This document shows, in pieces, positions 1 through 17,834 of a stretch of 22,911 nt of DNA. Origin of the DNA: Geobacterales bacterium (GTDB taxonomy: Bacteria > Desulfobacterota > Desulfuromonadia > Geobacterales > DSM-12255); assembly GCA_038206285.1 (NCBI GenBank), contig JBBRBA010000051.1:1-22911 (forward strand), written 5' to 3'. The number at the start of each line of letters is the position of its first letter. Position 1 is the first letter of the stretch. Both the position numbers and the translations under genes were made by a program. The notes under the pieces were generated by a model, which was not told the DNA's origin, made no database searches, and saw only the letters and a program-made list of their open reading frames with translations.

Positions 1-724
1 GATTATTGGTCAGGGTGACGTTGGTCAAAACAGGGCTGCTCCGCAGGCTGTAGATGCCGCCCCCTTCGAACCAGGCCTGATTGTTGCTGATGAGCAGATT
101 GGTCAGTATCGGGCTGGAACCCAGGTTATAGATGCCGCCGCCGGTGAGGGCGGCGCTATTGCCGGTAATGACGAGATTTGTCAGGGTGGGCGCGGCGTTG
201 ACGATGTAAAAACCGCCGCCGTCGCTGTTAACGCCCGCACCGTCGGCAGTGCCGCCGCTGATGGTGAAACGATCCAGCACCGCGCTGCTGTTGACGCCAT
301 TTGCCACCACCACATGCCAGGAGTTGTCACTTGTGTTCCCCGGCACGCCGATGTCGCCGCTTAAGGTAGTGACGTTGCCGCTGGCAGGCCGCTCGCTCCG
401 GGCGGCCTCACTGCCGCTGAAGCCGCCGTAGATGGCGACGCCGCTCTTCAGCACAAAGGAAACAGTCCGGTCAGCGCCGCTGGTCGGCCGATAGGTACCG
501 GCCTTGACCCAGATCTCGTCACCGGCGCCGGCCAGGGCAATGGCACTCTGCAGGTCGCAGGCGCTCCCCCAGGCGGCGCAGACGCCGCTGGCAAGGCCGC
601 CCGGCTGGGCAAAGCGGATGGTGGCAGCAGCCGGGGTGAAGGCGCCGCTCCAGAGGAGCAGGCAGAGAGCGGTCAGGAACAGTCCGGCAGCGCGGTGGGA
701 ATATTTTGTCTCGTTATGGTTCAT
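1..724 (-). CDS. Secreted right-handed parallel beta-helix repeat protein (Pmp-like / choice-of-anchor-Q-like). Only the N-terminal ~241 aa are present and the gene continues past the left edge of the window.
   Basis: I translated this myself. It is absent from the ORF track because no stop codon lies inside the window. ATG at 724-722 gives MNHNETKYSHRAAGLFLTALCLLLWSGAFTPAAA (signal peptide), then IRFAQPGG..CDLQSAIALAGAGDEIWVKAGTYRPT..FVLKSGVAIYGGF..TTLSGDIG..DNSWHVV..LDRFTISGG. Periodic repeats follow: GGGFYIV..SPTLTNLVITGN / GGGIYN..SPILTNLLISNN / GGGIYS..SPVLTNVTLTNN. A GAGG Shine-Dalgarno (SD) sequence lies about 10 nt upstream. Confidence 0.8.
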   Translation of the reverse strand, partial: MNHNETKYSHRAAGLFLTALCLLLWSGAFTPAAATIRFAQPGGLASGVCAAWGSACDLQSAIALAGAGDEIWVKAGTYRPTSGADRTVSFVLKSGVAIYGGFSGSEAARSERPASGNVTTLSGDIGVPGNTSDNSWHVVVANGVNSSAVLDRFTISGGTADGAGVNSDGGGFYIVNAAPTLTNLVITGNSAALTGGGIYNLGSSPILTNLLISNNQAWFEGGGIYSLRSSPVLTNVTLTNN

Positions 725-772: not shown

Positions 773-2353
773 TTACGGCGTCTTCCTGGTATCCGGGTTC
801 TTCAACATAAGCTCCTGCGGTTTTTTCTCCACCACCCCGGTTGTGTCGAAAAAAATCTGCACCCTGTCGTATTCCCGCCCGGTGGGGGCAGTCAATACAA
901 CCCAGCAGAAGTGGCTGCCGGTCAGGTCAACGCTGCTCCGCAGCGGAACGGCAAAGGTCACCTGCTCGAGCGGAGCTATTGTGCGTGCCTGGGGGGAGAC
1001 CGCTTCAATCCCTGGTTGACAACCGGTCAGAGCCACAATGTAATCCGCGGTGGTGCTGCCGACGTTTTCAATAACGACATTCATCACCCCCTGCCGCGTG
1101 AGTGAGTTGAACGGAGTGGCGCTCGCATCCTTGATCCAGCCGACCGCTTCGTAGGTGGTAGTGCCGGACTGGGCCGCATCCAGCTCAAGAGCCACCCGCG
1201 AGCTGACCGGCTCAGTTTCTACGACCTTGAGAGCCAGACCGGTCATCTCTGCCAGCCCGGACTTGAAGAGCTTCTTCCCCCGGAGCAGGTAGTCGGTTTC
1301 CGCCTCCGGGTTGGCGGTCAGCAGCGCCAGATCCGCCGCCAGGAGCTGCTTCAGCTGATTCCCCAGACAGGCGCCGGCCACGCTTTTATCCGCCCCGGCC
1401 AGCTGGCTGCGAAAGGCGCTGTAACCGGTCCCCACCTTGTCGCAGTCACTGCCGTCAACCGAGACCAGCTGCCGTGGCAGCAGCAGCGCGCTGTTCCAGT
1501 CGGGCTTGCCGTTGACCAGGGCTGTCGGGAGATAGACGATAGAGCCGGAAAGATCAGGTGGCGCCTGCCCAGCATCGCCATCAGCGGTTAAGGTGGCATG
1601 GACCGGGTGCGCAGATATGTCAAGCCATACGGGAATGTCCGGGGAGAGGGAGAATGTAAATAATGTGGCAGCTGCTTTAGTGACAGTGAAGTTGATGCGG
1701 TAGTCACGGCGGGGCGGGTCGATCTCGTAGCCACGGTAGCTGACCCCGCTCTGGCGCAGGCAGTGGCCGATGGAGAAGGAATCGGTCAGGGTGGACTGTG
1801 CCGCCAGCTCTTTCTCCCCCCGCCACCAGGCGGCCGGGTCGCTGCTGCTTTTCAGCTGCAGAAGGCTGCGGTTGCTGCAGAATCCCTGGGAATCGGCGAT
1901 CCTGTTGCCGCCGCCATCAAGCTGCCAGCCACAGGTGGGGGCAGCAGCAGCGGAACCGTCACTGCAGGCGGCTATGCCGGGACGGCTGTTATTCACCCTG
2001 ACCAGTTCCTCATAGGGGGCAAAGTCCACCGTCTGCAGGTAGCGGAGCGGATAGCTCCAGACCGGCCGGGTCTTGACAAGATTAATAGTGATCGGCTGTT
2101 CCAGCGTGATCTTCCCTGTCGAAGAAGTATCCATGTACGCCACATCCAGATTAGCGGTGAGGCCAAAGGCGATGTCCAGGCTAAGCCACAGCTTATTCTC
2201 GCAGCTAATGTCCGAATCCGTGCTGACACAATATTTGATGGTCGTACCGATTGGCTCGCCGGCGCTGGCCGGCCGCTCCATGACCGGCGCCAGGGCCAGC
2301 AGGAGCAGCAGCGTAAGACAGCGGCGAAAGGCTGATGTAGGTAACATATCCAT
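773..2353 (-). CDS. HAP2/GCS1-like (fusexin-like) secreted protein, paralog 1 (526 aa). Has a signal peptide and no TM anchor.
   Basis: Complete ORF with TAAGGAG directly upstream of the ATG. N-terminal signal peptide RRCLTLLLLLALAPV..ASA. Ten Cys in the mature part are conserved across the three paralogs. Motifs I recognise from eukaryotic HAP2: C-x8-C-ENK near the N-terminus, PVWSYPLRYL, CGWQLDGGGNRIADSQGFC, HCLRQSGVSYRGYE, and the HAP2-GCS1 (PF10699-type) signature LLLPRQLVSVDGSDCDKVGTGYSAFRSQ..ACLGNQLKQLLAADLALL. The C-terminal Ig-like domain reads VMNVVIENVGSTTADYIVALTGC...C..VL. Confidence 0.78.
   Translation of the reverse strand: MDMLPTSAFRRCLTLLLLLALAPVMERPASAGEPIGTTIKYCVSTDSDISCENKLWLSLDIAFGLTANLDVAYMDTSSTGKITLEQPITINLVKTRPVWSYPLRYLQTVDFAPYEELVRVNNSRPGIAACSDGSAAAAPTCGWQLDGGGNRIADSQGFCSNRSLLQLKSSSDPAAWWRGEKELAAQSTLTDSFSIGHCLRQSGVSYRGYEIDPPRRDYRINFTVTKAAATLFTFSLSPDIPVWLDISAHPVHATLTADGDAGQAPPDLSGSIVYLPTALVNGKPDWNSALLLPRQLVSVDGSDCDKVGTGYSAFRSQLAGADKSVAGACLGNQLKQLLAADLALLTANPEAETDYLLRGKKLFKSGLAEMTGLALKVVETEPVSSRVALELDAAQSGTTTYEAVGWIKDASATPFNSLTRQGVMNVVIENVGSTTADYIVALTGCQPGIEAVSPQARTIAPLEQVTFAVPLRSSVDLTGSHFCWVVLTAPTGREYDRVQIFFDTTGVVEKKPQELMLKNPDTRKTP
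848..1156 (-). repeat. Near-identical segment shared by paralog 1 and paralog 3 (encodes the Ig-like C-terminal domain). The partner copy is at 4064-4372.
   Basis: My hand alignment is ungapped at an offset of 3216 nt. It shows about 17 mismatches in 309 nt, including a perfectly identical 119-nt run (1008-1126 = 4224-4342). The corresponding region of paralog 2 is much more divergent. Confidence 0.85.
1621..1780 (-). repeat. Near-identical segment shared by paralog 1 and paralog 2 (central region). The partner copy is at 3230-3389.
   Basis: My hand alignment at an offset of 1609 nt shows 4 mismatches in 160 nt. Weaker but still high similarity continues to about 2068/3677. Paralog 3 is less similar here. 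Confidence 0.85.
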
Positions 2354-2363
2354 GGAAAACTCC

Positions 2364-3962
2364 TTACGGTGTCTTGACGGTGGTATCGCTGTTTTTCAGC
2401 ATCTTCTCCAGCGGCGTCAGGTCACTGACGGCACTTGGGGTGAAGGAGACCAGCTGCTGGGCATATGGCAGCCCGGACGGGGCAGTGAGCGTCACCAGAC
2501 AGCTGCGGCTGCCGCTCTGACCGTTCTCTGCCGTCAGGTTAAAGAGAAACCCGGCCTGGCCACCCGGCGCCAGAGTGCTGGCCTGGGGAGGGATGCTCCC
2601 GCGGATGCCGGGCGTACAGCCGCTCACCGTGACCAGGTAATCGGCAGTGAGCGGACCGCTGTTGCTGACGATCACCTTCAGTGAAGCATCCCGCGAGGTG
2701 ACGCCATGGGGGACTACGCTGGCCGAAACAATCACCCCGGTGGATTCGCTGCTGCTGGCGCCGACCTGAGCGGCGTCAATCTGCAGGCTGAGGCTGGAGT
2801 AGACCAGCTCCGGGGCGATGACGGTCAACTTCTGGCCGGTAAGGGTCGCCAGACCGCCCTTGAAGAGCTTTTTGCCACGCACCAGATAGTCGGTCTCGGC
2901 ATCCGGATTGGCCGCCAGCCGCGCCAGATCCGACGCCAGGAGCTGCTTCAGCTGATTCCCCAGGCAGGCGCCGGCCACGGATCTATCAGCCACCCCCGCC
3001 TGACTGCGAAAGGCGCTGTAGCCGCTCCCCACCCGGTCGCAGTCGCTGCCGTCCCGCGACACCAGCTGCCGTGGCACCAGCAGCAGGTTGTTCTGCCAGT
3101 CGAGCACCTTCGGGTCGTTGGCCGGGGCGCTCGGCACATAGAGGATAGAGCCGGAAAGATCGGCCGGCTGGCCGGCCGGCTGGTCTTCCCCGGTCAGGGT
3201 TGCCTTGATCGGGTGCGCAGACGATCTGTCAAGCCATACGGGAATGTCCGGGGAGACGGAGAATGTAAATAATGTGGCAGCTGCTTTAGTGCCAGTGAGG
3301 TTGATGCGGTAGTCACGGCGGGGCGGGTCGATCTCGTAGCCGCGGTAGCTGACCCCGCTCTGGCGCAGGCAGTGGCCGATGGAGAAGGAGGCTGCCTGAG
3401 TGGACTGCGCTCCCAGCTCCTTTTCTCCCCGCCACCAGGCGGCCGGGTCGCTGCTGCTTTTCAGCTGCAAAAGGTTACGGTTGCTGCAAAACCCCTGGGA
3501 GTCGGCGATCCTGTTGCCGCCGCCATCAAGCTGCCAGCCGCAGCTGGGGGGGGCAGCAGCAACGCCATCCACGCAGGCAGCAATGCCGGGGCTGCTGTTG
3601 AGCACTTTTGTCAGCTCCTCATAGGGGGCAAAATCCACGGTGTGCAGGTAGCGGAGCGGATAGCTCCAGACCGGTTGGGACTTGGCAATATTAATTGTGA
3701 ACGGCGCTTCCAGCGTGGTCTTCTCTCCCCCACCTTTTTGCGTGACCGTCTCCATGTACGCCACATCAAGATTAACGCTATCGCCGAACCCGACCCGCAT
3801 CTGCAGATTGACCTTATTCTCGCAGCTAATGTCCGAATCCGTGCTGACACAAGCGGTATGTACGCTTGTCAGCGGCGCCGGCGCCGCTGACAAGGGGAAC
3901 GGCAGGGCCAGCAGCAGAGCCAGCGGGCAGAGTAACGTAAAGAGACTATTCTTGTTATTCAT
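2364..3962 (-). CDS. HAP2/GCS1-like (fusexin-like) secreted protein, paralog 2 (532 aa). Has a signal peptide and no TM anchor.
   Basis: Complete ORF with an AAGGAG SD upstream of ATG 3962. Signal peptide LFTLLCPLALLLALPFPLSA. It carries the same motif set as paralog 1: CVSTDSDISCENK, PVWSYPLRYLHTVDFAPYEEL, CGWQLDGGGNRIADSQGFCSNR, AAWWRGEKE, HCLRQSGVSYRGYEIDPP, LLLVPRQLVSRDGSDCDRVGSGYSAFRSQ..ACLGNQLKQLLASDLARLA. Its C-terminal Ig-like domain is divergent (LKVIVSNSGPLTADYLVTVSGC...SC.VTL). Confidence 0.78.
   Translation of the reverse strand: MNNKNSLFTLLCPLALLLALPFPLSAAPAPLTSVHTACVSTDSDISCENKVNLQMRVGFGDSVNLDVAYMETVTQKGGGEKTTLEAPFTINIAKSQPVWSYPLRYLHTVDFAPYEELTKVLNSSPGIAACVDGVAAAPPSCGWQLDGGGNRIADSQGFCSNRNLLQLKSSSDPAAWWRGEKELGAQSTQAASFSIGHCLRQSGVSYRGYEIDPPRRDYRINLTGTKAAATLFTFSVSPDIPVWLDRSSAHPIKATLTGEDQPAGQPADLSGSILYVPSAPANDPKVLDWQNNLLLVPRQLVSRDGSDCDRVGSGYSAFRSQAGVADRSVAGACLGNQLKQLLASDLARLAANPDAETDYLVRGKKLFKGGLATLTGQKLTVIAPELVYSSLSLQIDAAQVGASSSESTGVIVSASVVPHGVTSRDASLKVIVSNSGPLTADYLVTVSGCTPGIRGSIPPQASTLAPGGQAGFLFNLTAENGQSGSRSCLVTLTAPSGLPYAQQLVSFTPSAVSDLTPLEKMLKNSDTTVKTP
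3230..3389 (-). repeat. Partner copy of the 1621-1780 repeat (paralog 2 central region).
   Basis: See 1621-1780. Confidence 0.85.
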
Positions 3963-3985
3963 TGGATACTCCTTGGCAGGCGCCG

Positions 3986-5602
3986 CTACGGCGCCTTGAC
4001 CGTGGTGTCGCTATTTTTCAGCAGCAGCTTGTCTGGCGCAGTTTCACTGACAGCGCTTGTGGCGAAGAAAATCTGCACCCTGTCGTATTCCCGCCCGGTG
4101 GGGGCAAGCAATACAACCCGGCAGAAGTGGCTGCCGGTCAGATCGACGCTGCTCCGCAGCGGAAAGGCAAAGGTCACCTGCTCGCGCGGAACGATAGTGC
4201 GCGCCTGGGGGGAGACCGCTTCGATCCCTGGTTGACAACCGGTCAGAGCCACAATGTAATCCGCGGTGGTGCTGCCGACGTTTTCAATAACGACATTCAT
4301 CACCCCCTGCCGCGTGAGTGAGTTGAACGGAGTGGCGCTCGCCTCCGGTATCCAGCCGACCGCTTCGTAGGTTAAAGCGTCGACCTTGGATGGAGCCATC
4401 TCCAGGGCGAGGGTGGAATAGGTGAGCTCCGGGCTTTTGAGCAGCAGCGACGGCTTCCCCAGAGTGGCCATCTCTGCCAGACCGGCCTTGAAGAGCTGCT
4501 TGCCGGAGAGGAGATAGTCGGTCTCGGCAGCGGGATTGGCGGCCAGCCGCGCCAGATCGGCCTGATGGAGCTGCTTCAGCTGGTTCCCCAGGCAGGCGCC
4601 GGCCGCACTCCTGTCCGCCACCCCCCCCTGCCGCCGGAACGCCCCGTAACTGACCCCCACCTTATTGCAGCCGCTGCCGTCGCTGGTCACCATGGTGCGC
4701 GGCACCAGCAGCAGGTTGTGCGTCCAGTCGATCACCTTGGGATCATCGGCAGGCTCAGACGGTACGTAGAGGATGGAGCCGGAGAGGTTCAGCGGCACCG
4801 GCTGCGGAGATTCCCGCCCCACCAGGGAGATCTGCAGCGGATAGGTGACGCTGGCCGGGTCATCACGATAAAAAGGCTTGTCAACAGAGAGCGCGAAGGG
4901 GCTGAGCAGGGTCTCGCCGCTGTAGACGCCGCCGCTGATGTCGAACTCCCGCACCGGCGGATCGATCTCGTAGCCACGGTACTTGACCCCGGACTGCCGC
5001 AGGCAGTGGCCGATGGAGAAGGAGTCGGTCAGGGTGGACTGCGCCCCCAGCTCTTTCTCCCCCCGCCACCAGGCATCGCCCGGCCCACAGTTCTGCAGCT
5101 GTAACAGGTCGCGGTTGCTGCAGAATCCCTGGGAATCGGCAATGGGACTGCCCCCGCCATTAAGCTGCCAGCCGCAGGTGGGGGCGACAGCGTCCGAAGC
5201 ATCAACGCAAGAGGCAATGCCGGGGCGGCTGTTGACCACCTTGACCAGCTCCTCTTTTGGCGCATAATCCACGGTGTGCAGGTAGCGGAGCGGATAGACC
5301 CAGGAGGGCATGCTCTTGCTTACTTTGAGGGTTTCAGCCACGCTACCGCGACCGGCGGCGCCGCTGTAGTTAGCCATCAGGACAGCAGTGACCCCATTGC
5401 TCACCCCGACATTCACTGCCTGCCGGGGGGTACAGACCGTCCTGGTGACGGCCGAATACGACTGCTGGACGCACTTGGTGAAGCTGTTGCTGCCGATGAA
5501 CAGCGCGGCATCTGCCGGACAAGGGGGGCAGAGTGCGGCTGTCAGCAGCAGTAACAGGAGAGCAACGAAATGTGCCCTGGTTGTGATGTCAATAATCTTC
5601 AT
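3986..5602 (-). CDS. HAP2/GCS1-like (fusexin-like) secreted protein, paralog 3 (538 aa). Has a signal peptide and no TM anchor.
   Basis: Complete ORF with a GGAG SD upstream of ATG 5602. Signal peptide HFVALLLLLLTAAL. The N-terminal ~95 aa are divergent. After that: WVYPLRYLHTVDYAPKEEL, CGWQLNGGGSPIADSQGFCSNR, GDAWWRGEKE, HCLRQSGVKYRGYEIDPP, LLLVPRTMVTSDGSGCNKVGVSYGAFRRQ..ACLGNQLKQLHQADLARLA. The Ig-like C-terminal domain is nearly identical to that of paralog 1. Confidence 0.78.
   Translation of the reverse strand: MKIIDITTRAHFVALLLLLLTAALCPPCPADAALFIGSNSFTKCVQQSYSAVTRTVCTPRQAVNVGVSNGVTAVLMANYSGAAGRGSVAETLKVSKSMPSWVYPLRYLHTVDYAPKEELVKVVNSRPGIASCVDASDAVAPTCGWQLNGGGSPIADSQGFCSNRDLLQLQNCGPGDAWWRGEKELGAQSTLTDSFSIGHCLRQSGVKYRGYEIDPPVREFDISGGVYSGETLLSPFALSVDKPFYRDDPASVTYPLQISLVGRESPQPVPLNLSGSILYVPSEPADDPKVIDWTHNLLLVPRTMVTSDGSGCNKVGVSYGAFRRQGGVADRSAAGACLGNQLKQLHQADLARLAANPAAETDYLLSGKQLFKAGLAEMATLGKPSLLLKSPELTYSTLALEMAPSKVDALTYEAVGWIPEASATPFNSLTRQGVMNVVIENVGSTTADYIVALTGCQPGIEAVSPQARTIVPREQVTFAFPLRSSVDLTGSHFCRVVLLAPTGREYDRVQIFFATSAVSETAPDKLLLKNSDTTVKAP
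4064..4372 (-). repeat. Partner copy of the 848-1156 repeat (paralog 3 C-terminal domain).
   Basis: See 848-1156. Confidence 0.85.
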
Positions 5603-5624: not shown

Positions 5625-5831
5625 TCATAGCTGTTCCTTTGACGTTTTCCGGCGCTGCCGTTTGCCTGCGCCCTGGTTCAACACTGCCGCCAGTTCATTC
5701 AGATCGGTAAAAGGGGTCCGACTACTGCTGCCGTCCAGCATCTCCACCTGACCGGTGAGCTTGTGCGGATTTTCGCTGTCGTGGCGGTAGATTCTTACAA
5801 GGTAACTTTGTGCGGTCGATAGTTCGGTCAT
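5625..5831 (-). CDS. Small hypothetical protein (68 aa from ATG 5831; the ORF track extends it to a GTG at 5870).
   Basis: The ORF sits 22 nt upstream of paralog 3 on the same strand. Sequence: MTELSTAQSYLVRIYRHDSENPHKLTGQVEMLDGSSSRTPFTDLNELAAVL followed by a basic tail GKRQRRKTSKEQL. No convincing SD precedes either candidate start. I do not recognise a named family. Coding status rests on length, position and the lack of an alternative. Confidence 0.45.
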   Translation of the reverse strand: MTELSTAQSYLVRIYRHDSENPHKLTGQVEMLDGSSSRTPFTDLNELAAVLNQGAGKRQRRKTSKEQL

Positions 5832-5942: not shown

Positions 5943-8900
5943 TTATTGCTGTTGAATGATGGCGGTATAGACGGCGGTGGTTTCCGGGGAGGGCTCGATG
6001 CCGAGTTCGCTCTGAAGCAGGCTGCGGCAGCGTTTGTAGCTCCTGACGGCGTCGGCGTGGTTGCCGAGCCGCTTTTGACAGATCATCAGGCGGCGGTAAA
6101 ACTCTTCGGCCAGGCTGTCGGTCTCGATCCCTTTCGTGTACAGCTCAGAGGCCTTTTCCCACTCACCGACCCGTTCATTCTGACGGCCCGCTGCAAGAAC
6201 GATGCGCAGCAGCCGGTTCTTAAGGGTTTCACGACTGGAGAGTACCCACGGCAAGGCGGAATCAGCAGGGAGGAAAGCTCCTTTGTTCAGACCGAGTGCC
6301 TTTTCGCACGACAGCACGGACTGGTCGTCCGCGAGCGCTTGCGCCCGGTCGAAAATATGTCGGAGCGCCAGGCTGTCCACCCAGCAATAAAGGGGATTGA
6401 TGGTCAGCTGGCGAGTCCGGCAGGTGACGACGTCATCCCTGCCGAGCAGCCGCCGCAGCCGGCTCAGGGTGGTTTCGAAGGACTTGCGGGCCTGGTCGCC
6501 ATCGGCATCGGGCCAAAGGACATCGGTCAGTCGCTCCTCGGGCACGTCCCGGCCGCCGAAGGCGATCAGGCTTTTTAGCAGTTCCAGCGGCTTTTTCTGC
6601 TCCTTGCCGCTAAAAGGCAGCGGCTCGCTGTCCCTGATGATCTCGAAACGGCCAAGGGTATAGACCTTGACCGGATAGGGCCATTCCTCCAGCAGCGCGG
6701 CAGACGGTTCGACACCGCTGTCTGTCACTGGCGGCGCCAGGTGAAGCTTCCTGATCAGCCCCTTCACGTACTCCGGCTCGATCCGTTCCTCCAGCGCCGT
6801 GGCACAGAGAAAGCCCATGACCGCTGGCTGATAGAACTCCAGATGGAGATAGCCGTGCCGCCGCCCCAGCCCGAACCCGCGGTGCAGCGCCAGCAAACCT
6901 TCGCTTCGCATGCCGTCCTGCAACAGAAACCAGGCTTCGAGCAGCAGCGAGTACCACTCCATGACCTGGCTCTTCATGCTCAGGCTGATGCGGTGGGCCG
7001 TCCGCACGAGCGTGGTCGCCTCGCCGGTGCGCCCCTGCATGAAAGCGGCCTGGGCCATGCCGATATGCCATAATGCGCGGTAGTAAGGGGTTCCCATCCG
7101 TTCGATCTGCCCGGAGACGGCCTCCAGGTGCCCGGCGGCACGCGACGGGTTGTTGCAAAGGAGCGCCAGCCAGGAGGCATTGACGTGATAGAAAAAGACG
7201 TTCAGCGCATTCTCCATGCCGAGCAGGGAGCGCAGCTGCTGTTGCAGCGCCAGTTCAGCGTTCGCCAGGTTGCCGGGCGCCAGCTCCGCCGCCGCCTTGA
7301 AGCTCCACAACAGGGAGTCGTAAATATGGACGCCGCTGTTCGCGGAGATCTCCAGCCCTTCGGTGAGGACCTGCAACGCCTCCTGATACCCGGCGGTAAT
7401 CCAGCAATGGATACCTTTCATCAGCTTGATGCGGATGAGCGCAAAGGGGGACGGCTGGCGATGACGAACCTCGACCGCCGCTCGTTCGAGCAGCAGAGCA
7501 TTCTTGTCGTACTCTCCCCGCCAGAGATAATAGATGCTCATACAGAAGACCGTATCCATCTGGATATCAAAGGACGGTTTCAGTTGCAGCAGGCCGGTTA
7601 CTCGCTGCAGCCACAACTCTACCCTGTGCGGCTGATCGGTTTTTCTCAATGTGAGTGAGAGGAGCATTCGCGATGAGACGATCAGTTCGGTGTCCAGGGT
7701 TGGAAATGATGGAAAGCTGCGCTGCAGTTCGTCAAAATCCACCAGGCAGTCATCCAGAGGCTTCCACTCGTCCCCGAAGACATGGGTGTCGACGATGGCC
7801 GCCCACGCAAGATAGCAGCCGGAGGGATCGCCATCCGCCCTGAAAGCTGTCAGGGCCTTTTCCAGAAAACTCCTGCTACGGGGGAGGTCAAGCGGAAACG
7901 AACTGATACCGTTCCAGTACAAAAGCCAGGGGTCATGATCCAGAATTTCGCCGGGGATACAGGCGAGCCATTCTGCCAGGGTCCGGCTCCTCCCCTGGAG
8001 GAGCAGTTCCCTTCCGTGACAGGCCACCATCCTGGCCAGGCTGTCATGGTCTCCGGATTTTGCGTACAAAAGCGCTGCGTCGTCCCGCTGCCCCGACTGT
8101 TCCAGCAGCAGTGCGGCATCTCTTTGCAGCCGCGCCACTCTATCAGCACTGAATTCGCTCACAGCCCTGCTCAGAAGAAATTCCCTGAAGAGAGGATGGT
8201 AGCGATAGTCCTGCCCGCTGCCGGACAGTTTTTCGGTAAAATAATGATGGCGGTTCAGGCTGGCGAGGATATCCCCGGCAGCTGCGAGTCCGGTCAGCTT
8301 TTCGGCCAGAGAAACGCTGAGCATGGGGAGCATGGCGGTTTTCAGCAGAAATTCCTGAATATCTTTCTCTTTGTGATTGAACAGCTCTCCGGCAAAATAA
8401 TCGAAGACCCTGTCTGAAGCCAAGTCCGCGAAAGATGTGATCCCGTCCCATTCCAACCCTGCCCGCTCCTGCATCAGGATTATCCCGGCAACCCACCCTT
8501 CGGTCCGCGCATGCATCCGTACGACCAGTTCCGGGTCAGGAAGCGGTCGGCGGCGCGCCATCAGTTCGCTGGATTCGTCGACGGTGAAGCGGAGATCATT
8601 ATTGTCGAGGGTTGCAATTTTGCCGTTGGACTGCAACCGCGCCAGTGAGGGGGGCGGCAGCTCCCGGCTCAGGACTACAACATGAATGTCGGCGCAGATC
8701 GAAGTCAGTGCGGTGGCGATCATGTCGTGGAACGCGGCCTCGGTCGGTACGTCCTGGTAGTTGTCAAGGACGATGACAAACCCGGGCAATCTCCCGTCTG
8801 TTGCCGGGGAAGGCTGGAGGCGACTGCAAAGTATTTCGAAATAACGACGGGTAAAGGTTGGGACGCCGGCAAGATATTCCGGAGTCAGAAGCGGCAGCGG

Positions 8901-9182
8901 TTTCCTGTGGCGCGGTGCGGCAAGCTTTGCTGCCAGCCCCATGTAGTAGAAAAAGGTGGCGAGGTCTGCATCCCCTTCATCACATTGATACCAGATACAG
9001 GGAAGCTCCTGCGCATCAAGGTAACTGGCGACAAGGGTCGATTTGCCCGAACCGCCAGGCGCAGTTATCCAGGTAACCGGATGCTGTGCCGCTGAATCAA
9101 GCAGTGCAAACAGTCGTTCCCTTTGGACCGGCTTCGTCAGAGTCGGTCGCGCTAATTTTGCCAATGCCGCTTTAGTAGCCAT
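5943..9182 (-). CDS. Large STAND-type signal-transduction ATPase regulator (1079 aa). It has a MalT-like N-terminal P-loop NTPase, a helical/TPR-like middle region, and a C-terminal OmpR/PhoB-type winged helix plus BTAD (SARP-type) module.
   Basis: N-terminus LAKLARPTLTKPVQRERLFALLD..VTWITAPGGSGKSTLV (Walker A). FVIVLDNYQDV (Walker B-like). A long helical repeat region follows. The last ~242 aa (about 5946-6671) read VKVYTLGRFEIIRDSEPLPFSGKEQKKPLELLKSLIAFGGRDVPEERLTDVLWPD..ARKSFETTLSRLRRLLG (wHTH), then ELYTKGIETDSLAEEFYRRLMICQKRLGNHADAVRSYKRCRSLLQSELGIEPSPET (BTAD). Confidence 0.85.
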   Translation of the reverse strand: MATKAALAKLARPTLTKPVQRERLFALLDSAAQHPVTWITAPGGSGKSTLVASYLDAQELPCIWYQCDEGDADLATFFYYMGLAAKLAAPRHRKPLPLLTPEYLAGVPTFTRRYFEILCSRLQPSPATDGRLPGFVIVLDNYQDVPTEAAFHDMIATALTSICADIHVVVLSRELPPPSLARLQSNGKIATLDNNDLRFTVDESSELMARRRPLPDPELVVRMHARTEGWVAGIILMQERAGLEWDGITSFADLASDRVFDYFAGELFNHKEKDIQEFLLKTAMLPMLSVSLAEKLTGLAAAGDILASLNRHHYFTEKLSGSGQDYRYHPLFREFLLSRAVSEFSADRVARLQRDAALLLEQSGQRDDAALLYAKSGDHDSLARMVACHGRELLLQGRSRTLAEWLACIPGEILDHDPWLLYWNGISSFPLDLPRSRSFLEKALTAFRADGDPSGCYLAWAAIVDTHVFGDEWKPLDDCLVDFDELQRSFPSFPTLDTELIVSSRMLLSLTLRKTDQPHRVELWLQRVTGLLQLKPSFDIQMDTVFCMSIYYLWRGEYDKNALLLERAAVEVRHRQPSPFALIRIKLMKGIHCWITAGYQEALQVLTEGLEISANSGVHIYDSLLWSFKAAAELAPGNLANAELALQQQLRSLLGMENALNVFFYHVNASWLALLCNNPSRAAGHLEAVSGQIERMGTPYYRALWHIGMAQAAFMQGRTGEATTLVRTAHRISLSMKSQVMEWYSLLLEAWFLLQDGMRSEGLLALHRGFGLGRRHGYLHLEFYQPAVMGFLCATALEERIEPEYVKGLIRKLHLAPPVTDSGVEPSAALLEEWPYPVKVYTLGRFEIIRDSEPLPFSGKEQKKPLELLKSLIAFGGRDVPEERLTDVLWPDADGDQARKSFETTLSRLRRLLGRDDVVTCRTRQLTINPLYCWVDSLALRHIFDRAQALADDQSVLSCEKALGLNKGAFLPADSALPWVLSSRETLKNRLLRIVLAAGRQNERVGEWEKASELYTKGIETDSLAEEFYRRLMICQKRLGNHADAVRSYKRCRSLLQSELGIEPSPETTAVYTAIIQQQ

Positions 9183-9212
9183 CGCATCCGTAGATTATTG
9201 AAGTTGGCAATT

Positions 9213-9230
9213 CACTAATGAAAATTAGTG
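9213..9230. promoter_or_regulatory. Perfect inverted repeat CACTAAT-GAAA-ATTAGTG in the leader/promoter of the STAND regulator gene.
   Basis: Seen directly about 31 bp upstream of ATG 9182. Two further palindromes follow: ATGTTGCAACAT at 9246-9257 and GAACA-N6-TGTTC at 9264-9279. Confidence 0.3.
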
Positions 9231-9300
9231 TACAGCAGCTGTCGCATGTTGCAACATAAACCGGAACATGATCCTGTTCTCTGCCGGCAAAAATGTCTGC

Positions 9301-9342
9301 AGACACAAAACGCCCCCCACTCTGGCAAGTGAAGGGCGTTTT
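9301..9342 (-). terminator. Rho-independent terminator downstream of frr.
   Basis: The minus strand reads AAAACGCCC-TT-CACT-TGCCAG-AGTG-GG-GGGCGTTTT followed by GTGTCT. This is a GC-rich interrupted stem ending in a T run, about 33 nt after the frr stop. Confidence 0.65.
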
Positions 9343-9374
9343 CAATTCTACGTAGAAAGCTGCGAGGGGCTGAA

Positions 9375-11802: not shown

Positions 11803-12573
11803 TTATTCGGCAGACGCTTCTTCTACCGCATCTTCCGGGCTGCCTTCTTCAACAGCATCACCTTCATTGTAGTTCTGCAGCTGCTGGTCCCTGATTTCGC
11901 GACCTTCGATGATTGCATCGGCAATCTTGCTGCTCAAAAGGCGGATGGCGCGGATTGCATCATCGTTGCCGGGTATTATATAGTCGATCATGTCCGGATT
12001 GCAGTTGGTGTCAACAATTGCGACTACCGGAATGCCAAGTTTCTTGGCTTCACAGACGGCAATCTCTTCATTCTGCGGGTCAACTACAAAGAGGACACCC
12101 GGCAGCTTGCCCATACCTTTGATCCCGCCAAGGGTCTTTTCAAGTTTTTCACGCTCTTTATCAAACTGGAGACGCTCTTTCTTGGTATATGCCTCGATAG
12201 AGCCGTCAGCAAACATGCTGTCGAACTTTTTCAGGCGTTCGATGCTCTGCTTGACCGTGGAAAAATTGGTCAGCATGCCGCCGAGCCAGCGCTGATTCAC
12301 GTAATGCATGCCGCAGCGGCTTGCCTCTTCGGCAACGGCGTCCTGTCCCTGCTTCTTGGTGCCGACAAAAAGGAATGTTTCGCCTGCCCTGGCAGCTTCG
12401 GTGACAAAGTTGTAAGCGTTCTTGAAAAGGCGGACGGTTTTCTGCAGGTCAATGATGTAGATGCCGTTTCTTGCTCCGAAAATGTATGGCTTCATCTTCG
12501 GGTTCCAGCGTTTTGTCTGGTGACCGAAATGAACACCGGCCTCCAGAAGCTCCTTCATGGTAATACTGGACAT
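11803..12573 (-). CDS. rpsB: 30S ribosomal protein S2.
   Basis: [46 protein letters not shown].. is the typical S2 sequence. The start is set at ATG 12573 (AAGGAGAG SD upstream). The 29-aa N-terminal extension in the ORF track (to 12660) has no S2 counterpart. Confidence 0.95.
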
Positions 12574-12775
12574 TTTTGCTCTCCTTGGATTTGGTTTTTC
12601 CCCTCCGCATACCCATAACCATGGGATCCTTTGCAGGACACCCCCCATAGCCGACGGCAAGCGTGTGAAATTTCTACAGCGAATTTATATAACACAATCG
12701 ACCTGTTACAGGCAAGAGAAAACGAAAGCAGGCGGAGCCGTTTACATCCTTTCCGCCTTGATGTATGATGCCGCC

Positions 12776-15048: not shown

Positions 15049-15915
15049 ATGCGTCAAATCATAACGGCATTAATTATGGCACTGGTATTGTGCACAACTG
15101 CTTTTGCTGAAGACGAGTCGATGCAGTCTCCGCCGATACTGAGCATAATTCCCGGGCAAGGGGCTCCAGCTACAAGAGTAGTTATCTCCGGGACAGGCTT
15201 TACTCTGGAGACGGTCCTGTATCTCGGTATCGAAGCGGTTCCGGTAAAACTCCTGTCGTCACGGCAGCTAAGCTTCGAAATTCCGCAGATTGCTGCCGGG
15301 AACTATGCCCTCTATCTGCGCCAGAATGGAGGCGAAAGCGGCAAGGCATATTCGTTTGCGGTCGTGCCGGTAAAGCCGGTCGCGACTTCGGTTTCGCCGG
15401 ACAGCATTGCGTACTGCGCATCAGGAGATGACCGGAAGGTAGCTGTCAGAGGGAAAAATTTTCTTGAAGGGGCGCAAGTTGTTTTTGACGGCGCCATGAT
15501 AAGAAGCAGCCGCATTTCCGGCGAAGAGATGACCTTTACCGCACCGCCGGTTCCCGGAGGGCTTCATCAGGTGCAGGTCAAAAACCCGGAGGAGACTCTT
15601 TCCGGGGCGGTAGCCCTGTTGGTAAACAACCGGCCGGAACTACGCAACGTCAGCCAGGGGGCTGATTATGTTAACTATTACGATTTGAATATTGAGGGGA
15701 TCAATTTCCAGCAGGGATCCGTCCTGGTAGTTAACGGGAAGACGGTCCAGATGGGTTATTCTTATTATGGAGTGCAGGACAGCCTGGCCTTTGTAAGTTG
15801 CACCAGGCTGATCTATCGGCGCTATCCTTACGACCCGACATCAAAAAACCTGGATATTAGGATAGTTAATCCCGGCGGCGAAGAGAGCAGCAGCTTTACG
15901 GTGACGGCGCCCTAG
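15049..15915 (+). CDS. Secreted IPT/TIG-domain repeat protein.
   Basis: A GGGAG SD precedes the start. Signal peptide MRQIITALIMALVLCTTAFA. Repeated modules of about 85-90 aa follow, of the type P.I.SI.P..G...T.V.I.G.GF........G...v......s...l.F..P, for example PILSIIPGQGAPATRVVISGTGF and PVATSVSPDS..KVAVRGKNFLEGAQVVFDG..EEMTFTAPPVPGGLHQVQVKNP. Confidence 0.75.
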   Translation: MRQIITALIMALVLCTTAFAEDESMQSPPILSIIPGQGAPATRVVISGTGFTLETVLYLGIEAVPVKLLSSRQLSFEIPQIAAGNYALYLRQNGGESGKAYSFAVVPVKPVATSVSPDSIAYCASGDDRKVAVRGKNFLEGAQVVFDGAMIRSSRISGEEMTFTAPPVPGGLHQVQVKNPEETLSGAVALLVNNRPELRNVSQGADYVNYYDLNIEGINFQQGSVLVVNGKTVQMGYSYYGVQDSLAFVSCTRLIYRRYPYDPTSKNLDIRIVNPGGEESSSFTVTAP

Positions 15916-17653: not shown

Positions 17654-17676
17654 GTTAGCATAAGTAACGTAGCGCA

Positions 17677-17701
17677 CGTAAAAAGGCAACCCGAAGGTTG
17701 C
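17677..17701 (-). terminator. Terminator-like hairpin in the leader of the GT-C/TPR gene. It could be a second ahcY terminator or an attenuator.
   Basis: The minus strand reads GCAACC-TTCG-GGTTGC followed by CTTTTTAC, about 25-50 nt upstream of ATG 17653. Confidence 0.35.
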
Positions 17702-17800
17702 ATGTTTGCGTGCCAGCAATCGCTTCCTGATCTGAAACAGGTTGATACTGCTAAAGCAGGTCCTTGACATCCCTGCCGCCGGGAGTTCCGCCGGGCAGAT

Positions 17801-17834
17801 AAAAACTGGCGGCCTCATCGACTGAGGCCGCCAG
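17801..17834 (-). terminator. Rho-independent terminator downstream of ahcY.
   Basis: The minus strand reads CTGGCGGCCTCA-GTCGA-TGAGGCCGCCAG followed by TTTTTAT. This is a perfect 12-bp stem, about 42 nt after the ahcY stop. Confidence 0.88.

What the first reader, a model, noticed from the sequence alone, without database searches (positions are those of the whole stretch)
1346..1489. Similarity to eukaryotic HAP2 is visible in the primary sequence, which raises a horizontal-transfer and direction question
The PF10699-like signature occurs in paralog 1 at 1346-1489, paralog 2 at 2937-3089 and paralog 3 at 4568-4714. It matches algal and plant HAP2 nearly residue for residue over stretches such as CDKVGTG(Y/F)SAFR.Q and ACL..QLK.L...DLAR. 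As I recall, archaeal Fsx1 was recognisable only through sensitive profile and structural comparison. Conservation this close between a bacterium and eukaryotes suggests either fairly recent inter-domain transfer, in either direction, or very strong constraint. The genes have no introns and use bacterial translation signals.
Basis: partly seen in the sequence, partly recalled or inferred. Interest (0 to 1): 0.7.

Follow-up and report, generated by a model that had tools for sequence, protein, structure and literature searches.

The report
Anchorless bacterial HAP2 gamete-fusogen homologues
A sediment-type bacterium (Geobacterales) carries three tandem, secreted copies of the protein that fuses sperm and egg in plants, algae and protists. 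They belong to a rare, previously undescribed bacterial branch of that family that lacks the membrane anchor, which bears directly on where the eukaryotic sex fusogen came from.

Summary
Minus-strand ORFs 773-2353, 2364-3962 and 3986-5602 are full-length HAP2/GCS1 homologues (Pfam PF10699, E 2.7e-66, 3e-58 and 2e-60). An AlphaFold model (pLDDT 92) superposes on Chlamydomonas HAP2 at TM 0.78-0.84. Archaeal Fsx1 is far more distant (sequence E 0.15, TM 0.48).

The "fairly recent inter-domain transfer" reading is not supported. Identity to eukaryote-type HAP2 averages 25% (max 33%). The best named eukaryotic hits are Malawimonas, Balamuthia and Andalucia, not algae or plants. In a distance tree, 41 bacterial-type sequences separate from 77 eukaryote-type ones with 100/100 bootstrap. 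The near-identical motifs are positions conserved across the whole family.

The bacterial proteins have Sec signal peptides but no transmembrane anchor or tail. They sit in a conserved six-gene, GC-rich cassette: a STAND/BTAD regulator, a 68-aa ORF, three HAP2 genes and a giant adhesin-like protein. This cassette follows frr where close relatives have uppS, and lies next to a 5S rRNA gene in another genome.

My best guess, by inference only, is a regulated, exported, trimer-forming membrane-insertion module that works with the adhesin rather than an autonomous fusogen. The direction of the ancient transfer is unresolved. I found no paper describing bacterial HAP2.

The parts
773..2353 (-). HAP2 paralog 1 (526 aa). 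It has a Sec signal peptide (cleavage probably after ASA), domains I-III and a domain II tip carrying W176, W177 and R178. It ends ...LKNPDTRKTP with no TM anchor. It is a mosaic of paralog 2 (aa 80-255) and paralog 3 (aa 400-490).
   Evidence: Pfam PF10699 E 2.7e-66. AF2 pLDDT 92, TM 0.78-0.84 to Chlamydomonas HAP2. No hydrophobic segment outside the N-terminus. Mosaic nucleotide identity.
2364..3962 (-). HAP2 paralog 2 (532 aa), exported and anchorless. Its positional counterpart is the middle gene of the triple in L006/L007 (58% identity).
   Evidence: Pfam E 3e-58. AAGGAG 7 nt before the ATG. Orthology by BLASTP.
3986..5602 (-). HAP2 paralog 3 (538 aa), the first gene of the triple, exported and anchorless. 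Its counterpart is the first gene of the L006/L007 triple (58% identity).
   Evidence: Pfam E 2e-60. GGAG 6 nt before the ATG. BLASTP.
1346..1489 (-). ACLGNQLKQ). The equivalent blocks are at 2937-3089 and 4568-4714.
   Evidence: In-frame translation. These positions are conserved in both the bacterial and the eukaryotic sets.
5625..5831 (-). Small conserved ORF (68 aa, MTELSTAQSYLVRIYRHD...GKRQRRKTSKEQL). It has no signal peptide, a basic tail and no family match. It is a cassette member of unknown role.
   Evidence: 67% identical to the ORF fragment just upstream of the HAP2 triple in L007. No hit in Pfam, PADLOC or PHROGs.
5943..9182 (-). STAND-type NTPase + TPR + BTAD/SARP-like transcriptional regulator (1079 aa), upstream on the same strand. 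It is the probable regulator of the cassette.
   Evidence: Pfam BTAD E 5e-22 plus sub-threshold AAA_16 and NPHP3_N hits. NCBIfam hits to MalT (E 6e-50, below its curated cut-off) and AfsR. A 67%-identical 1088-aa orthologue sits upstream of the HAP2 triple in L018.
1..724 (-). N-terminal 241 aa of a large secreted adhesin-like protein (signal peptide, PMP-type beta-helix repeats). It runs off the window end. Its orthologue in L006 is 1637 aa with Laminin_G_3, Big_3_5 and fn3 domains.
   Evidence: 65% identity over all 241 aa to the L006 gene directly downstream of the HAP2 triple. Domains. The same kind of protein lies directly downstream of HAP2 in other locus groups.
9183..9374 (.). Junction between the core genome and the cassette. 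The frr terminator hairpin is retained. After it, homology to close relatives (which continue with uppS) stops. GC rises from about 0.52 to 0.59-0.64.
   Evidence: Alignment with L015 and L016. Synteny of relatives. Composition.

Best explanation
Shown:
- The three tandem genes encode complete homologues of the ectodomain (domains I, II and III) of the eukaryotic gamete fusogen HAP2/GCS1. The domain II tip and the Arg that is invariant in eukaryote-type HAP2 are present.
- Each protein has an N-terminal hydrophobic leader that reads as a Sec-type signal peptide. None has the C-terminal transmembrane anchor or cytoplasmic tail.
- They belong to a rare bacterial HAP2 clade. All 41 representatives are anchorless. 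MAGs assigned to Desulfobacterota, Nitrospirota, Planctomycetota and Gammaproteobacteria carry members.
- This clade is separate from, and not nested within, eukaryotic HAP2.
- In this uncultured Geobacterales bacterium the genes are part of a six-gene, GC-rich cassette: STAND/BTAD regulator, 68-aa ORF, three HAP2 genes, giant adhesin-like protein. The cassette follows frr where relatives have uppS, and sits at a different site in another genome. It therefore moved between bacteria recently.

Inferred:
- The inter-domain split is old. The local near-identity to algal and plant HAP2 reflects family-wide constraint.

Mechanism (inferred, about 0.35):
- The regulator switches the operon on.
- The HAP2 proteins are exported and reach the cell exterior.
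- The co-encoded adhesin binds a target cell surface.
- The HAP2 proteins insert their hydrophobic, aromatic tip (L164, L165, L167, W176, W177) into that membrane and trimerise, as soluble class II ectodomains do on liposomes. With three conserved paralogs this may be a heterotrimer.
- Without an anchor they cannot pull two membranes together on their own. They would therefore act as membrane-binding or membrane-perturbing proteins, or as fusogens only if tethered through a partner.
For: Homology:
- Pfam E 2.7e-66, 3e-58 and 2e-60 over profile positions 2-479 of 515.
- Only HAP2 chains are hit in PDB.
- AF2 model pLDDT 92, pTM 0.84. Its best matches are Chlamydomonas and Arabidopsis HAP2 at TM 0.70-0.84 and rmsd 3.8-5.6 A. 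Next come Fsx1 (TM about 0.48), EFF-1 and viral class II proteins.
- 41 positions are co-conserved with eukaryotes, including R178, which aligns with the Arg invariant in the eukaryote-type set (by recall, Chlamydomonas R185), plus SQGFC, HCL and 10 cysteines.

Anchorless:
- The alignment ends about 25 aa after domain III with a conserved ...L.KN..T/S.. tail.
- A hydropathy scan finds a C-terminal TM segment in no bacterial-type sequence but in most eukaryote-type ones.

Separate clade:
-. The eukaryote-type clade includes named Malawimonas, Balamuthia, Andalucia, Blattamonas and Closterium sequences.

Bacterial context:
- Searches show bacterial genes around other members. The host is identified.

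Cassette and mobility:
- The same gene order with 53-67% identical products occurs in L006, L007 and L018.
- Relatives with 89-90% identical Tsf have frr-uppS-cdsA-dxr instead.
- GC3 is 0.71-0.79 in the cassette against 0.55-0.68 in most core genes. The L006 island shows the same contrast.
- In L018 the cassette is adjacent to a 5S rRNA gene.

Extracellular or adhesive role:
- The only recurrent neighbour across 34 non-redundant locus groups is a large protein with Chlam_PMP, Big_3_5, He_PIG, cadherin-like or LamG domains, found in 6 groups and directly downstream in 5 of them.
- Other members are fused to Bact_surface_Ig-like, collagen triple-helix (a trimeriser), TIG or TSP_3 modules.
Against: - No experiment or expression data exist for any bacterial member.
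- Secretion beyond the periplasm is inferred only from partner and fusion domains. No secretion system is encoded nearby.
- The trimer and heterotrimer ideas are untested, and most other lineages carry a single copy.
- The window's lineage has lost three cysteines that are near-invariant in eukaryotes (positions 160, 162 and 321).
- A 'tip-less' bacterial subfamily lacks the fusion-loop finger altogether. Membrane insertion is therefore not essential for every member.
- The trees are neighbour-joining only, unrooted, and needed two rogue sequences (P0128, P0054) removed. With them included, support falls to 38-65%.
- Taxonomic assignments of the other loci rest on MAG binning.
- The AF2 model may be biased towards the post-fusion shape of HAP2 structures that I believe were in its training set.
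Confidence: 0.55

Rival explanations
1. Indirectly anchored true fusogen. The proteins are tethered to the outer membrane or cell surface through the conserved C-terminal tail, the adhesin or another partner. They then drive real membrane merger: outer-membrane exchange, vesicle-cell fusion or cell-cell fusion between bacteria. This would be a bacterial counterpart of gamete fusion.
For: - The complete class II architecture is retained, with the fusion-loop tip and the invariant Arg.
- A conserved short tail follows domain III in most members.
- The pairing of an adhesin with HAP2 recalls adhesion followed by HAP2 fusion in Chlamydomonas (PMC13601591 abstract, seen).
- Tight regulation by a STAND/BTAD protein, or by a histidine kinase plus LytTR regulator in L012, fits a hazardous activity.
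Against: - None of the 41 bacterial-type representatives has a TM segment, and the window's three paralogs and their closest relatives show no lipobox by eye.
- No anchoring partner has been identified. The adhesin itself has no TM or recognised anchor.
- Established knowledge of class II fusogens is that hairpin-driven fusion needs anchoring in the protein's own membrane.
Confidence: 0.2
2. Non-fusogenic structural or adhesive surface protein. The class II fold has been re-used as an extracellular scaffold, for example a lattice, matrix or adhesin stalk, with no membrane insertion.
For: - A bacterial subfamily lacks the whole fusion-loop finger (profile positions 115-205 and 315-340) yet is conserved.
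- Frequent fusion to Ig-like, collagen, TSP_3 and dockerin-like modules, the last judged by eye from C-terminal sequence.
- Loss of the eukaryotic tip cysteines in this lineage.
Against: The window's three paralogs and most of the clade keep the tip with conserved hydrophobic or aromatic residues and the Arg that is functionally critical in eukaryotic HAP2. This is hard to explain without a tip-dependent activity.
Confidence: 0.15
3. Recent transfer of a HAP2 gene from an alga or plant into this bacterium, or the reverse.
For: - Motif-level near-identity to Chlamydomonas HAP2.
- Compositional oddity of the genes within the contig.
Against: - Only 25% mean and 33% maximum identity to any eukaryote-type representative.
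- No affinity to the green lineage. The top named hits are Malawimonas, Balamuthia and Andalucia, and Closterium sits inside the eukaryotic clade.
- The bacterial-eukaryotic split has 100/100 bootstrap.
- The bacterial clade is itself deep (down to 25% identity) and spread over four phyla.
- The GC-rich island also contains typical bacterial genes and recurs in another bacterium.
Confidence: 0.03
4. Artefact: a eukaryotic fragment mis-assembled or mis-binned onto a bacterial contig.
For: - GC shift at about 9.2 kb.
- The window's exact proteins are not on record in the contig look-up collection.
Against: - Shine-Dalgarno sites, 10-23 nt spacers and intronless ORFs.
- The regulator inside the GC-rich part is a typical bacterial BTAD/STAND protein.
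- There are 34 non-redundant loci. Every one whose neighbours were checked, on contigs up to 42 kb, carries typical bacterial genes, and the longest contig is 317 kb.
- The same cassette occurs on independent assemblies.
Confidence: 0.02

Closest known systems
Eukaryotic HAP2/GCS1 gamete fusogen (Pfam PF10699; structures 5MF1, 6DBS, 6E18, 5OW3, 5OW4, 7S0K)
   Same: - Full-length sequence homology of the ectodomain (E 1e-58 to 1e-66).
- Same three-domain class II fold (TM 0.70-0.84).
- 41 co-conserved positions, including the tip Arg, SQGFC, HCL, CDKVG..F and CL.NQL, plus ten cysteines.
- N-terminal signal peptide.
   Different: - No TM anchor and no cytoplasmic tail, with only a short stem of about 25 aa.
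- The window's lineage lacks three eukaryote-invariant cysteines (CCxC reduced to C, and position 321).
- Encoded in a bacterial operon as three tandem paralogs with a regulator and a giant adhesin-like protein.
- Forms a separate clade at about 25% identity.
Archaeal Fusexin1 (Fsx1; PDB 7P4L; Moi et al. 2022, PMC9259645)
   Same: - A prokaryotic class II (fusexin) protein.
- Carried on a horizontally mobile element.
- Raises the same question about the origin of gamete fusogens.
   Different: - Fsx1 is only marginally detectable by sequence (E 0.15 with the bacterial profile). Foldseek gives 12-13% identity and TM about 0.48.
- Fsx1 was crystallised as an ectodomain and has an extra domain IV and a six-helix bundle (PMC9259645). 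The proteins here have neither a TM segment nor a domain IV.
- The bacterial proteins are true HAP2-type, much nearer to eukaryotes than Fsx1 is.
Viral class II fusion proteins (flavivirus E, alphavirus E1, bunyavirus Gc) and C. elegans EFF-1
   Same: Same overall fold, recovered at Foldseek E 1e-10 to 1e-15. From established knowledge, soluble ectodomains of these proteins insert into liposomes and trimerise. That is the behaviour proposed here.
   Different: 8-12% identity. The viral and EFF-1 proteins are TM-anchored and sit in an envelope or plasma membrane. No viral contig in IMG/VR encodes a relative of the bacterial clade.
Adhesion-then-fusion modules of gametes (Chlamydomonas FUS1/MAR1 with HAP2)
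   Same: An Ig-like or lectin-rich adhesion protein is functionally coupled to HAP2. Here the coupling is genetic: a giant PMP-beta-helix/LamG/Ig protein is directly downstream in five locus groups.
   Different: No sequence relationship between the bacterial adhesin and FUS1 or MAR1 was tested or is claimed. This is an analogy only.

Membership tests
HAP2-GCS1 sequence family (Pfam PF10699) | Match to the family profile above the curated gathering score, over most of the profile | tested here: met
   198-225 bits against a 27.4-bit cut-off, covering profile positions 2-479 of 515. Reciprocally, the bacterial profile hits HAP2 PDB chains at E 7e-60 to 4e-39.
HAP2-GCS1 sequence family (Pfam PF10699) | Three-domain class II fold (domain I beta-sandwich, elongated domain II with a tip, Ig-like domain III) | tested here: met
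   AF2 pLDDT 92, pTM 0.84. Foldseek TM 0.78-0.84 and rmsd 3.8-4.6 A to Chlamydomonas HAP2. This is a predicted structure, not a solved one.
HAP2-GCS1 sequence family (Pfam PF10699) | Invariant Arg at the domain II tip and the conserved disulfide cysteines | tested here: inconclusive
   The Arg is present: R178 aligns with a column that is 100% Arg in 77 eukaryote-type sequences. Ten cysteine columns are shared. The eukaryote-invariant cysteines at positions 160, 162 and 321 are absent in the window's lineage, although some other bacterial members keep C160.
Class II membrane fusogen (functional class: HAP2, EFF-1, viral E/E1/Gc, Fsx1) | Anchoring in the protein's own membrane by a C-terminal TM segment | tested here: not met
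   The ORFs stop about 25 aa after domain III. A hydropathy scan shows no TM segment beyond the signal peptide in any of the 41 bacterial-type representatives, whereas most eukaryote-type ones have one.
Class II membrane fusogen (functional class: HAP2, EFF-1, viral E/E1/Gc, Fsx1) | Hydrophobic fusion loop(s) at the domain II tip | tested here: met
   The tip segment 160-195 carries L164, L165, L167, W176, W177, L183 and F193. The commonest residues at six of these positions (all but L165) reach 37-76% in the bacterial clade. Whether they insert into membranes is not testable here.
Class II membrane fusogen (functional class: HAP2, EFF-1, viral E/E1/Gc, Fsx1) | Trimerisation into a post-fusion hairpin, and sufficiency for membrane fusion | not testable with these tools
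   Only a monomer could be modelled. It adopts a post-fusion-like arrangement (TM 0.78 to 6DBS against 0.49 to prefusion 7S0K), which may reflect bias from structures I believe were in the AF2 training set.
Archaeal Fsx1 family | Detectable sequence similarity to Fsx1, and presence of domain IV and the six-helix bundle | tested here: not met
   Fsx1 scores E 0.15 (13 bits) against the bacterial profile, on domain III only. The model is 526 aa with three domains only. Foldseek TM is 0.46-0.52.
Anti-phage defence system or phage protein | Match to PADLOC or PHROGs models | tested here: not met
   No hit for HAP2, the small ORF or the adhesin. Only a weak TPR hit for the regulator.

The most novel reading that the evidence does not exclude
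The anchorless bacterial clade is not a eukaryote-derived offshoot. It would instead represent the ancestral stock from which proto-eukaryotes acquired HAP2, by a bacterium-to-stem-eukaryote transfer followed by gain of a TM anchor. The sex fusogen would then have a bacterial origin, rather than a viral, archaeal or eukaryotic one. The unrooted tree has bacteria and eukaryotes as reciprocally exclusive groups. The bacterial clade is deep (down to 25% identity) and spans four phyla. Both facts are compatible with this reading.
Probability: 0.2. Interest if true: 0.95.

Novelty: new variant of a known kind. Interest (0 to 1): 0.8.

Why it matters
HAP2 is regarded as the ancestral eukaryotic gamete fusogen. 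Its origin (virus, archaeon or eukaryote) is an open question. So far the question has been addressed only with very distant relatives (Fsx1, viral class II proteins) that cannot be aligned reliably by sequence (PMC9259645).

A bacterial clade that aligns with eukaryotic HAP2 over its whole ectodomain at about 25% identity supplies a close outgroup or sister group. Sequence-based phylogenetics and rooting become possible.

It also offers small, anchorless, intronless HAP2 ectodomains from bacteria. These are attractive for structural and biophysical work on prefusion-to-trimer transitions.

Finally, it points to an unknown bacterial cell-surface activity that couples a giant adhesin to a class II membrane-insertion protein.

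Tried and rejected
- Searching the 5.8-billion-protein index with a 42-sequence alignment returned only the 13 proteins already known. The word index did not reach further. The exhaustive representative search was the useful one.
- Looking up the window's own proteins in the contig index found nothing.
- Cluster look-ups of bacterial-type representatives gave no organism names. The taxonomic spread therefore rests on four GTDB MAG titles and on Tsf for the host.
- The first AF2 run with 15 sequences was poor (pLDDT 68). It was superseded by the 100-sequence run.
- IMG/VR scans with the bacterial alignment and with P0128 found no viral relatives.
- PADLOC and PHROGs gave no hits.
- tRNA scans found no integration-site tRNA.
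- The promoter and terminator scan was not above shuffled expectation.
- Apparent 'two-copy' loci L020, L022 and L047 are single genes split by frameshifts, not tandem paralogs.
- No ML tree software was available, so only NJ with bootstraps was possible. Rooting with Fsx1 was not attempted because only about 100 residues align.
- Several literature searches for bacterial HAP2 or bacterial fusexins found nothing.
Full report
**1. The observation**

The window has three tandem minus-strand ORFs: 3986-5602 (538 aa), 2364-3962 (532 aa) and 773-2353 (526 aa).

Each ORF matches Pfam HAP2-GCS1 (PF10699) across almost the entire 515-position profile. The E-values are 2.7e-66, 3e-58 and 2e-60. A single-sequence search of all PDB chains returns only HAP2 structures, from Trypanosoma cruzi, Chlamydomonas, Cyanidioschyzon and Arabidopsis, at E 1e-25 to 2e-16.

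GGAG or AAGGAG lies 6-7 nt upstream of each ATG. The spacers between genes are 10 and 23 nt, and there are no interruptions.

**2. The host and the contig**

The rest of the window is ordinary bacterial core genome:
- frr, pyrH, tsf and rpsB
- lptF and lptG, which indicate a diderm cell
- ahcY
- glycosyltransferases

Tsf is 82% identical to a 'Geobacteraceae bacterium' MAG protein and 66-67% identical to Geobacter and Trichlorobacter proteins. The organism is therefore an uncultured member of Geobacterales (Desulfobacterota).

**3. Structure**

A first AlphaFold run with 15 sequences was mediocre (pLDDT 68). A run with a 100-sequence alignment of bacterial and eukaryotic homologues gave pLDDT 92 and pTM 0.84.

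Foldseek against the PDB ranks the matches as follows:

| Target | TM-score | rmsd or E-value |
|---|---|---|
| Chlamydomonas HAP2 (6DBS, 6E18, 5MF1) | 0.70-0.84 | 3.8-4.7 A |
| Arabidopsis HAP2 (5OW3) | 0.70-0.81 | 5.6 A |
| Archaeal Fsx1 (7P4L) | 0.46-0.52 | E 1e-17 to 2e-16 |
| EFF-1 and viral class II proteins | lower | E 1e-15 to 1e-10 |

By sequence, the bacterial profile scores HAP2 chains at E 7e-60 to 4e-39 and Fsx1 at E 0.15. These are HAP2-type proteins, far closer to eukaryotic HAP2 than the known prokaryotic fusexin.

**4. What is conserved and what is missing**

In a 120-sequence alignment, 41 positions carry the same residue in at least 80% of bacterial-type and at least 70% of eukaryote-type sequences. 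They include:
- C42, C51, C130, C141, C159, C198, plus the pairs C304/C329 and C445/C483
- the SQGFC block and HCL
- K306, G308 and F314 of the CDKVG..F motif
- L330, N332 and Q333 of CL.NQL, and D341

R178 aligns with an Arg that is 100% conserved in the eukaryote-type set. From my own knowledge this corresponds to Chlamydomonas R185 at the domain II tip.

Two things are missing:
- The eukaryote-invariant cysteines at positions 160, 162 and 321 are absent in this lineage.
- Every bacterial-type protein lacks a transmembrane anchor and cytoplasmic tail. The ORFs end about 25 residues after domain III, with a conserved ...L.KN.(D/E)(T/S).. tail.

**5. Family size and phylogeny**

An exhaustive HMMER search of 1.84 billion cluster representatives found 1206 homologues at E<=1e-3 and 295 at E<=1e-30.

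The top 46 or so representatives are anchorless. From P0047 downwards, nearly all have a TM segment near residues 520-620 and a tail. Named members of this second group are eukaryotes: Malawimonas, Balamuthia, Andalucia, Blattamonas and Closterium.

Identity over 484 trimmed columns:

| Comparison | Mean | Extreme |
|---|---|---|
| Bacterial to bacterial | 41% | min 25% |
| Eukaryotic to eukaryotic | 31% | - |
| Bacterial to eukaryotic | 25% | max 33% |

In neighbour-joining trees, the 41 anchorless sequences separate from the 77 eukaryote-type sequences in 100/100 bootstraps. This held under three distance corrections and two trimming levels, after removing two rogue sequences (P0128, P0054). 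All 5000 sampled quartets support the split. With the rogue sequences included, support was 38-65%.

The bacterial clade is therefore not nested in green algae, plants or any other sampled eukaryotic group. 'Fairly recent inter-domain transfer' is not supported.

The tree is unrooted and distance-based, since no ML software was available. The direction of the ancient event stays open.

**6. Bacterial distribution and contexts**

A pattern-limited scan of 185,579 species-representative genomes found members in four MAGs at 33-35% identity:
- Nitrospira
- Planctomycetota
- the Olavius Delta 1 symbiont
- Gammaproteobacteria

A metagenome scan added 33 loci. Altogether there are 34 non-redundant locus groups.

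The neighbours are typical bacterial genes:
- TRAP transporters and toxin-antitoxin pairs
- RtcB and RtcA
- ETF
- Ser/Thr kinase with PP2C
- histidine kinase with a LytTR regulator

No relatives were found in IMG/VR viral contigs.

Some members are fused to extracellular modules:
- three Bact_surface_Ig-like domains (Planctomycetota and others)
- TIG plus collagen triple helix (Olavius symbiont; collagen alone in L039)
- TSP_3 repeats replacing domain III (the gammaproteobacterial MAG)

**7. The cassette**

In the window the gene order on the minus strand is:
- STAND NTPase/TPR/BTAD regulator (5943-9182)
- 68-aa ORF (5625-5831)
- HAP2 paralogs 3, 2 and 1
- a secreted beta-helix protein that runs off the window (724-1)

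Independent metagenome contigs L006, L007, L017 and L018 carry the same arrangement:

| Gene | Identity to the window's gene |
|---|---|
| Regulator (1088 aa) | 67% |
| Small ORF | 67% |
| Three HAP2 genes, same order | 53-58% to positional counterparts |
| 1637-aa protein | 65% over its N-terminus |

The 1637-aa protein continues with Laminin_G_3, Big_3_5 and fn3 domains.

The only recurrent neighbour family is a large protein of this kind, with Chlam_PMP, Big_3_5, He_PIG, Big_9, cadherin-like or LamG domains. It occurs in 6 of the 34 locus groups. It lies directly downstream of HAP2 in five of them.

**8. The cassette is a mobile island**

- Two relatives with 89-90% identical Tsf have the classical order rpsB-tsf-pyrH-frr-uppS-cdsA-dxr-rseP.
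- In the window, homology stops right after the frr terminator and the cassette follows.
- GC is 0.59-0.64 (GC3 0.71-0.79) in the cassette, against 0.48-0.59 (GC3 mostly 0.55-0.68) in the core genes.
- In L006 the cassette is 0.64-0.66 GC, against 0.48-0.52 in its flanks.
- In L018 the cassette lies next to a 5S rRNA gene, which is a different chromosomal site.

It reports recent bacterium-to-bacterium movement of the whole cassette, not a eukaryotic donor.

**9. Paralog dynamics**

Paralog 1 is a mosaic:
- Its DNA is 85-97% identical to paralog 2 in most 90-nt windows over aa 80-255 (one window dips to 73%).
- It is 90-97% identical to paralog 3 over aa 400-490.
- Elsewhere identity is 40-60%.

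This indicates gene conversion. It explains why the paralogs within one genome (56-63% identical; p1-p2 63%, p1-p3 about 60%) are about as similar as the positional orthologues (53-58%). The triple arrangement occurs only in this lineage. Other loci have one copy, and the apparent doubles are frameshift-split genes.

**10. Mechanism**

Shown:
- an N-terminal hydrophobic leader that reads as a Sec-type signal peptide
- a complete class II ectodomain with a hydrophobic, aromatic tip and the conserved Arg
- no anchor
- an operon with a regulator and a giant adhesin-like protein
- extracellular-type fusion partners in other members

Inferred from established behaviour of soluble class II ectodomains (they insert into liposomes and trimerise):
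- The proteins are released to the cell surface or the medium.
- They are brought to a target membrane by the adhesin.
- They insert through the domain II tip and trimerise. With three conserved paralogs this may be a heterotrimer.

Without an anchor they cannot by themselves draw two bilayers together. I therefore rate 'membrane-binding or membrane-perturbing module that cooperates with an adhesin' (about 0.35) above 'true fusogen tethered through a partner' (about 0.2) and 'purely structural or adhesive scaffold' (about 0.15).

The structural reading gains some support from a 'tip-less' bacterial subfamily that has lost the fusion-loop finger. The target (other bacteria, vesicles or eukaryotic grazers) is unknown.

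**11. Novelty**

Full-text searches of 8 million papers and preprints up to mid-2026 found no description of bacterial HAP2 or bacterial fusexins.

Moi et al. 2022 describe Fsx1 in archaea and mention, with caution, a few Fsx1-bearing MAGs binned as bacteria. NCBIfam has no model for these proteins.

I classify this as a new variant of a known kind: an anchorless, operon-encoded bacterial branch of the HAP2 family. Subscription-only literature was not searchable. The precomputed Pfam annotations attached to these database proteins already flag PF10699, so others may have noticed it informally.

Noticed in passing
window 773-5602 (-): Paralog 1 is a recombinant. Its nucleotide identity to paralog 2 is 85-97% in most windows over aa 80-255 (one dips to 73%), and to paralog 3 it is 90-97% over aa 400-490. 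Elsewhere it is 40-60%. This indicates gene conversion among the tandem copies.
   Followed up: yes
window 5625-5831 (-); L007 3-215: A 68-aa ORF with no family match (..SYLVRIYRHD..KLTGQVE..G....PFTDL.ELAAVL.. then a basic tail) is conserved at 67% identity just upstream of the HAP2 triple in another genome. Its role is unknown. It has no signal peptide, so a cytoplasmic or regulatory role seems likely.
   Followed up: partly
window 9183-9374; L015 12320-12445; L016 12234-12355; L018 1-105: The cassette occupies the position where close relatives have uppS-cdsA-dxr-rseP after frr. In L018 the same cassette follows a 5S rRNA gene. No tRNA, integrase or repeat border was seen, and the other border lies outside the window.
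   Followed up: partly
P0036, P0041, P0044, P0059, P0080, P0086, P0095, P0121 (390-440 aa); also P0037, P0039, P0043, P0046, P0050, P0052: A 'tip-less' bacterial HAP2 subfamily has a signal peptide and domains I and III. It lacks profile positions 115-205 (the fusion-loop finger of domain II). In the shortest forms it also lacks positions 315-340 (the CDKVG..ACL segment).
   Followed up: partly
P0128 (L011 5230-7464) and P0054: Two TM-bearing HAP2 sequences of unknown origin behave as rogue taxa near the bacterial-eukaryotic split. P0128 lies on a compact 9.6-kb contig whose called genes lie close together, alongside RCC1/WD40 and MORN repeat proteins. It could be a prokaryote, a giant virus or a protist. 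No IMG/VR match was found.
   Followed up: partly
L003 497-2656; L039 3613-6099; L004 3321-4895; L002 9944-12679; L032 6815-9511; L008 6527-8992: HAP2 is fused to other modules: TIG plus collagen triple-helix repeats (N-terminal), TSP_3 repeats (replacing domain III), or three Bact_surface_Ig-like domains (C-terminal). Collagen repeats are obligate trimerisers, which fits a trimeric HAP2.
   Followed up: partly
L001 5207-6226: In the Nitrospira MAG an IS110-family transposase lies about 1.5 kb upstream of the HAP2 gene. A 2332-aa PKD/TPR/SprB-repeat protein lies downstream on the other strand. The HAP2 gene is 7 GC points richer than its flanks.
   Followed up: no
window 15896-17818 (-) versus L015 5387-5794 and L016 5467-5874: Between ahcY and the TIG-domain gene the window has a 640-aa multi-pass membrane protein with C-terminal TPR repeats. 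Both close relatives have a 135-aa hemerythrin there. This is a second local gene-content difference in the same neighbourhood.
   Followed up: no
window 11803-12660 (-): The mechanical rpsB ORF starts at a TTG and adds about 28 N-terminal residues that overlap the divergent lptF ORF. The real start is probably the ATG giving [19 protein letters not shown] (near 12576). The relatives' RpsB proteins are 251-256 aa.
   Followed up: no
L020 2349-4115; L022; L047: In three metagenome loci the HAP2 reading frame is split in two by a frameshift. These may be sequencing errors or pseudogenes, and could indicate occasional decay of the gene.
   Followed up: no
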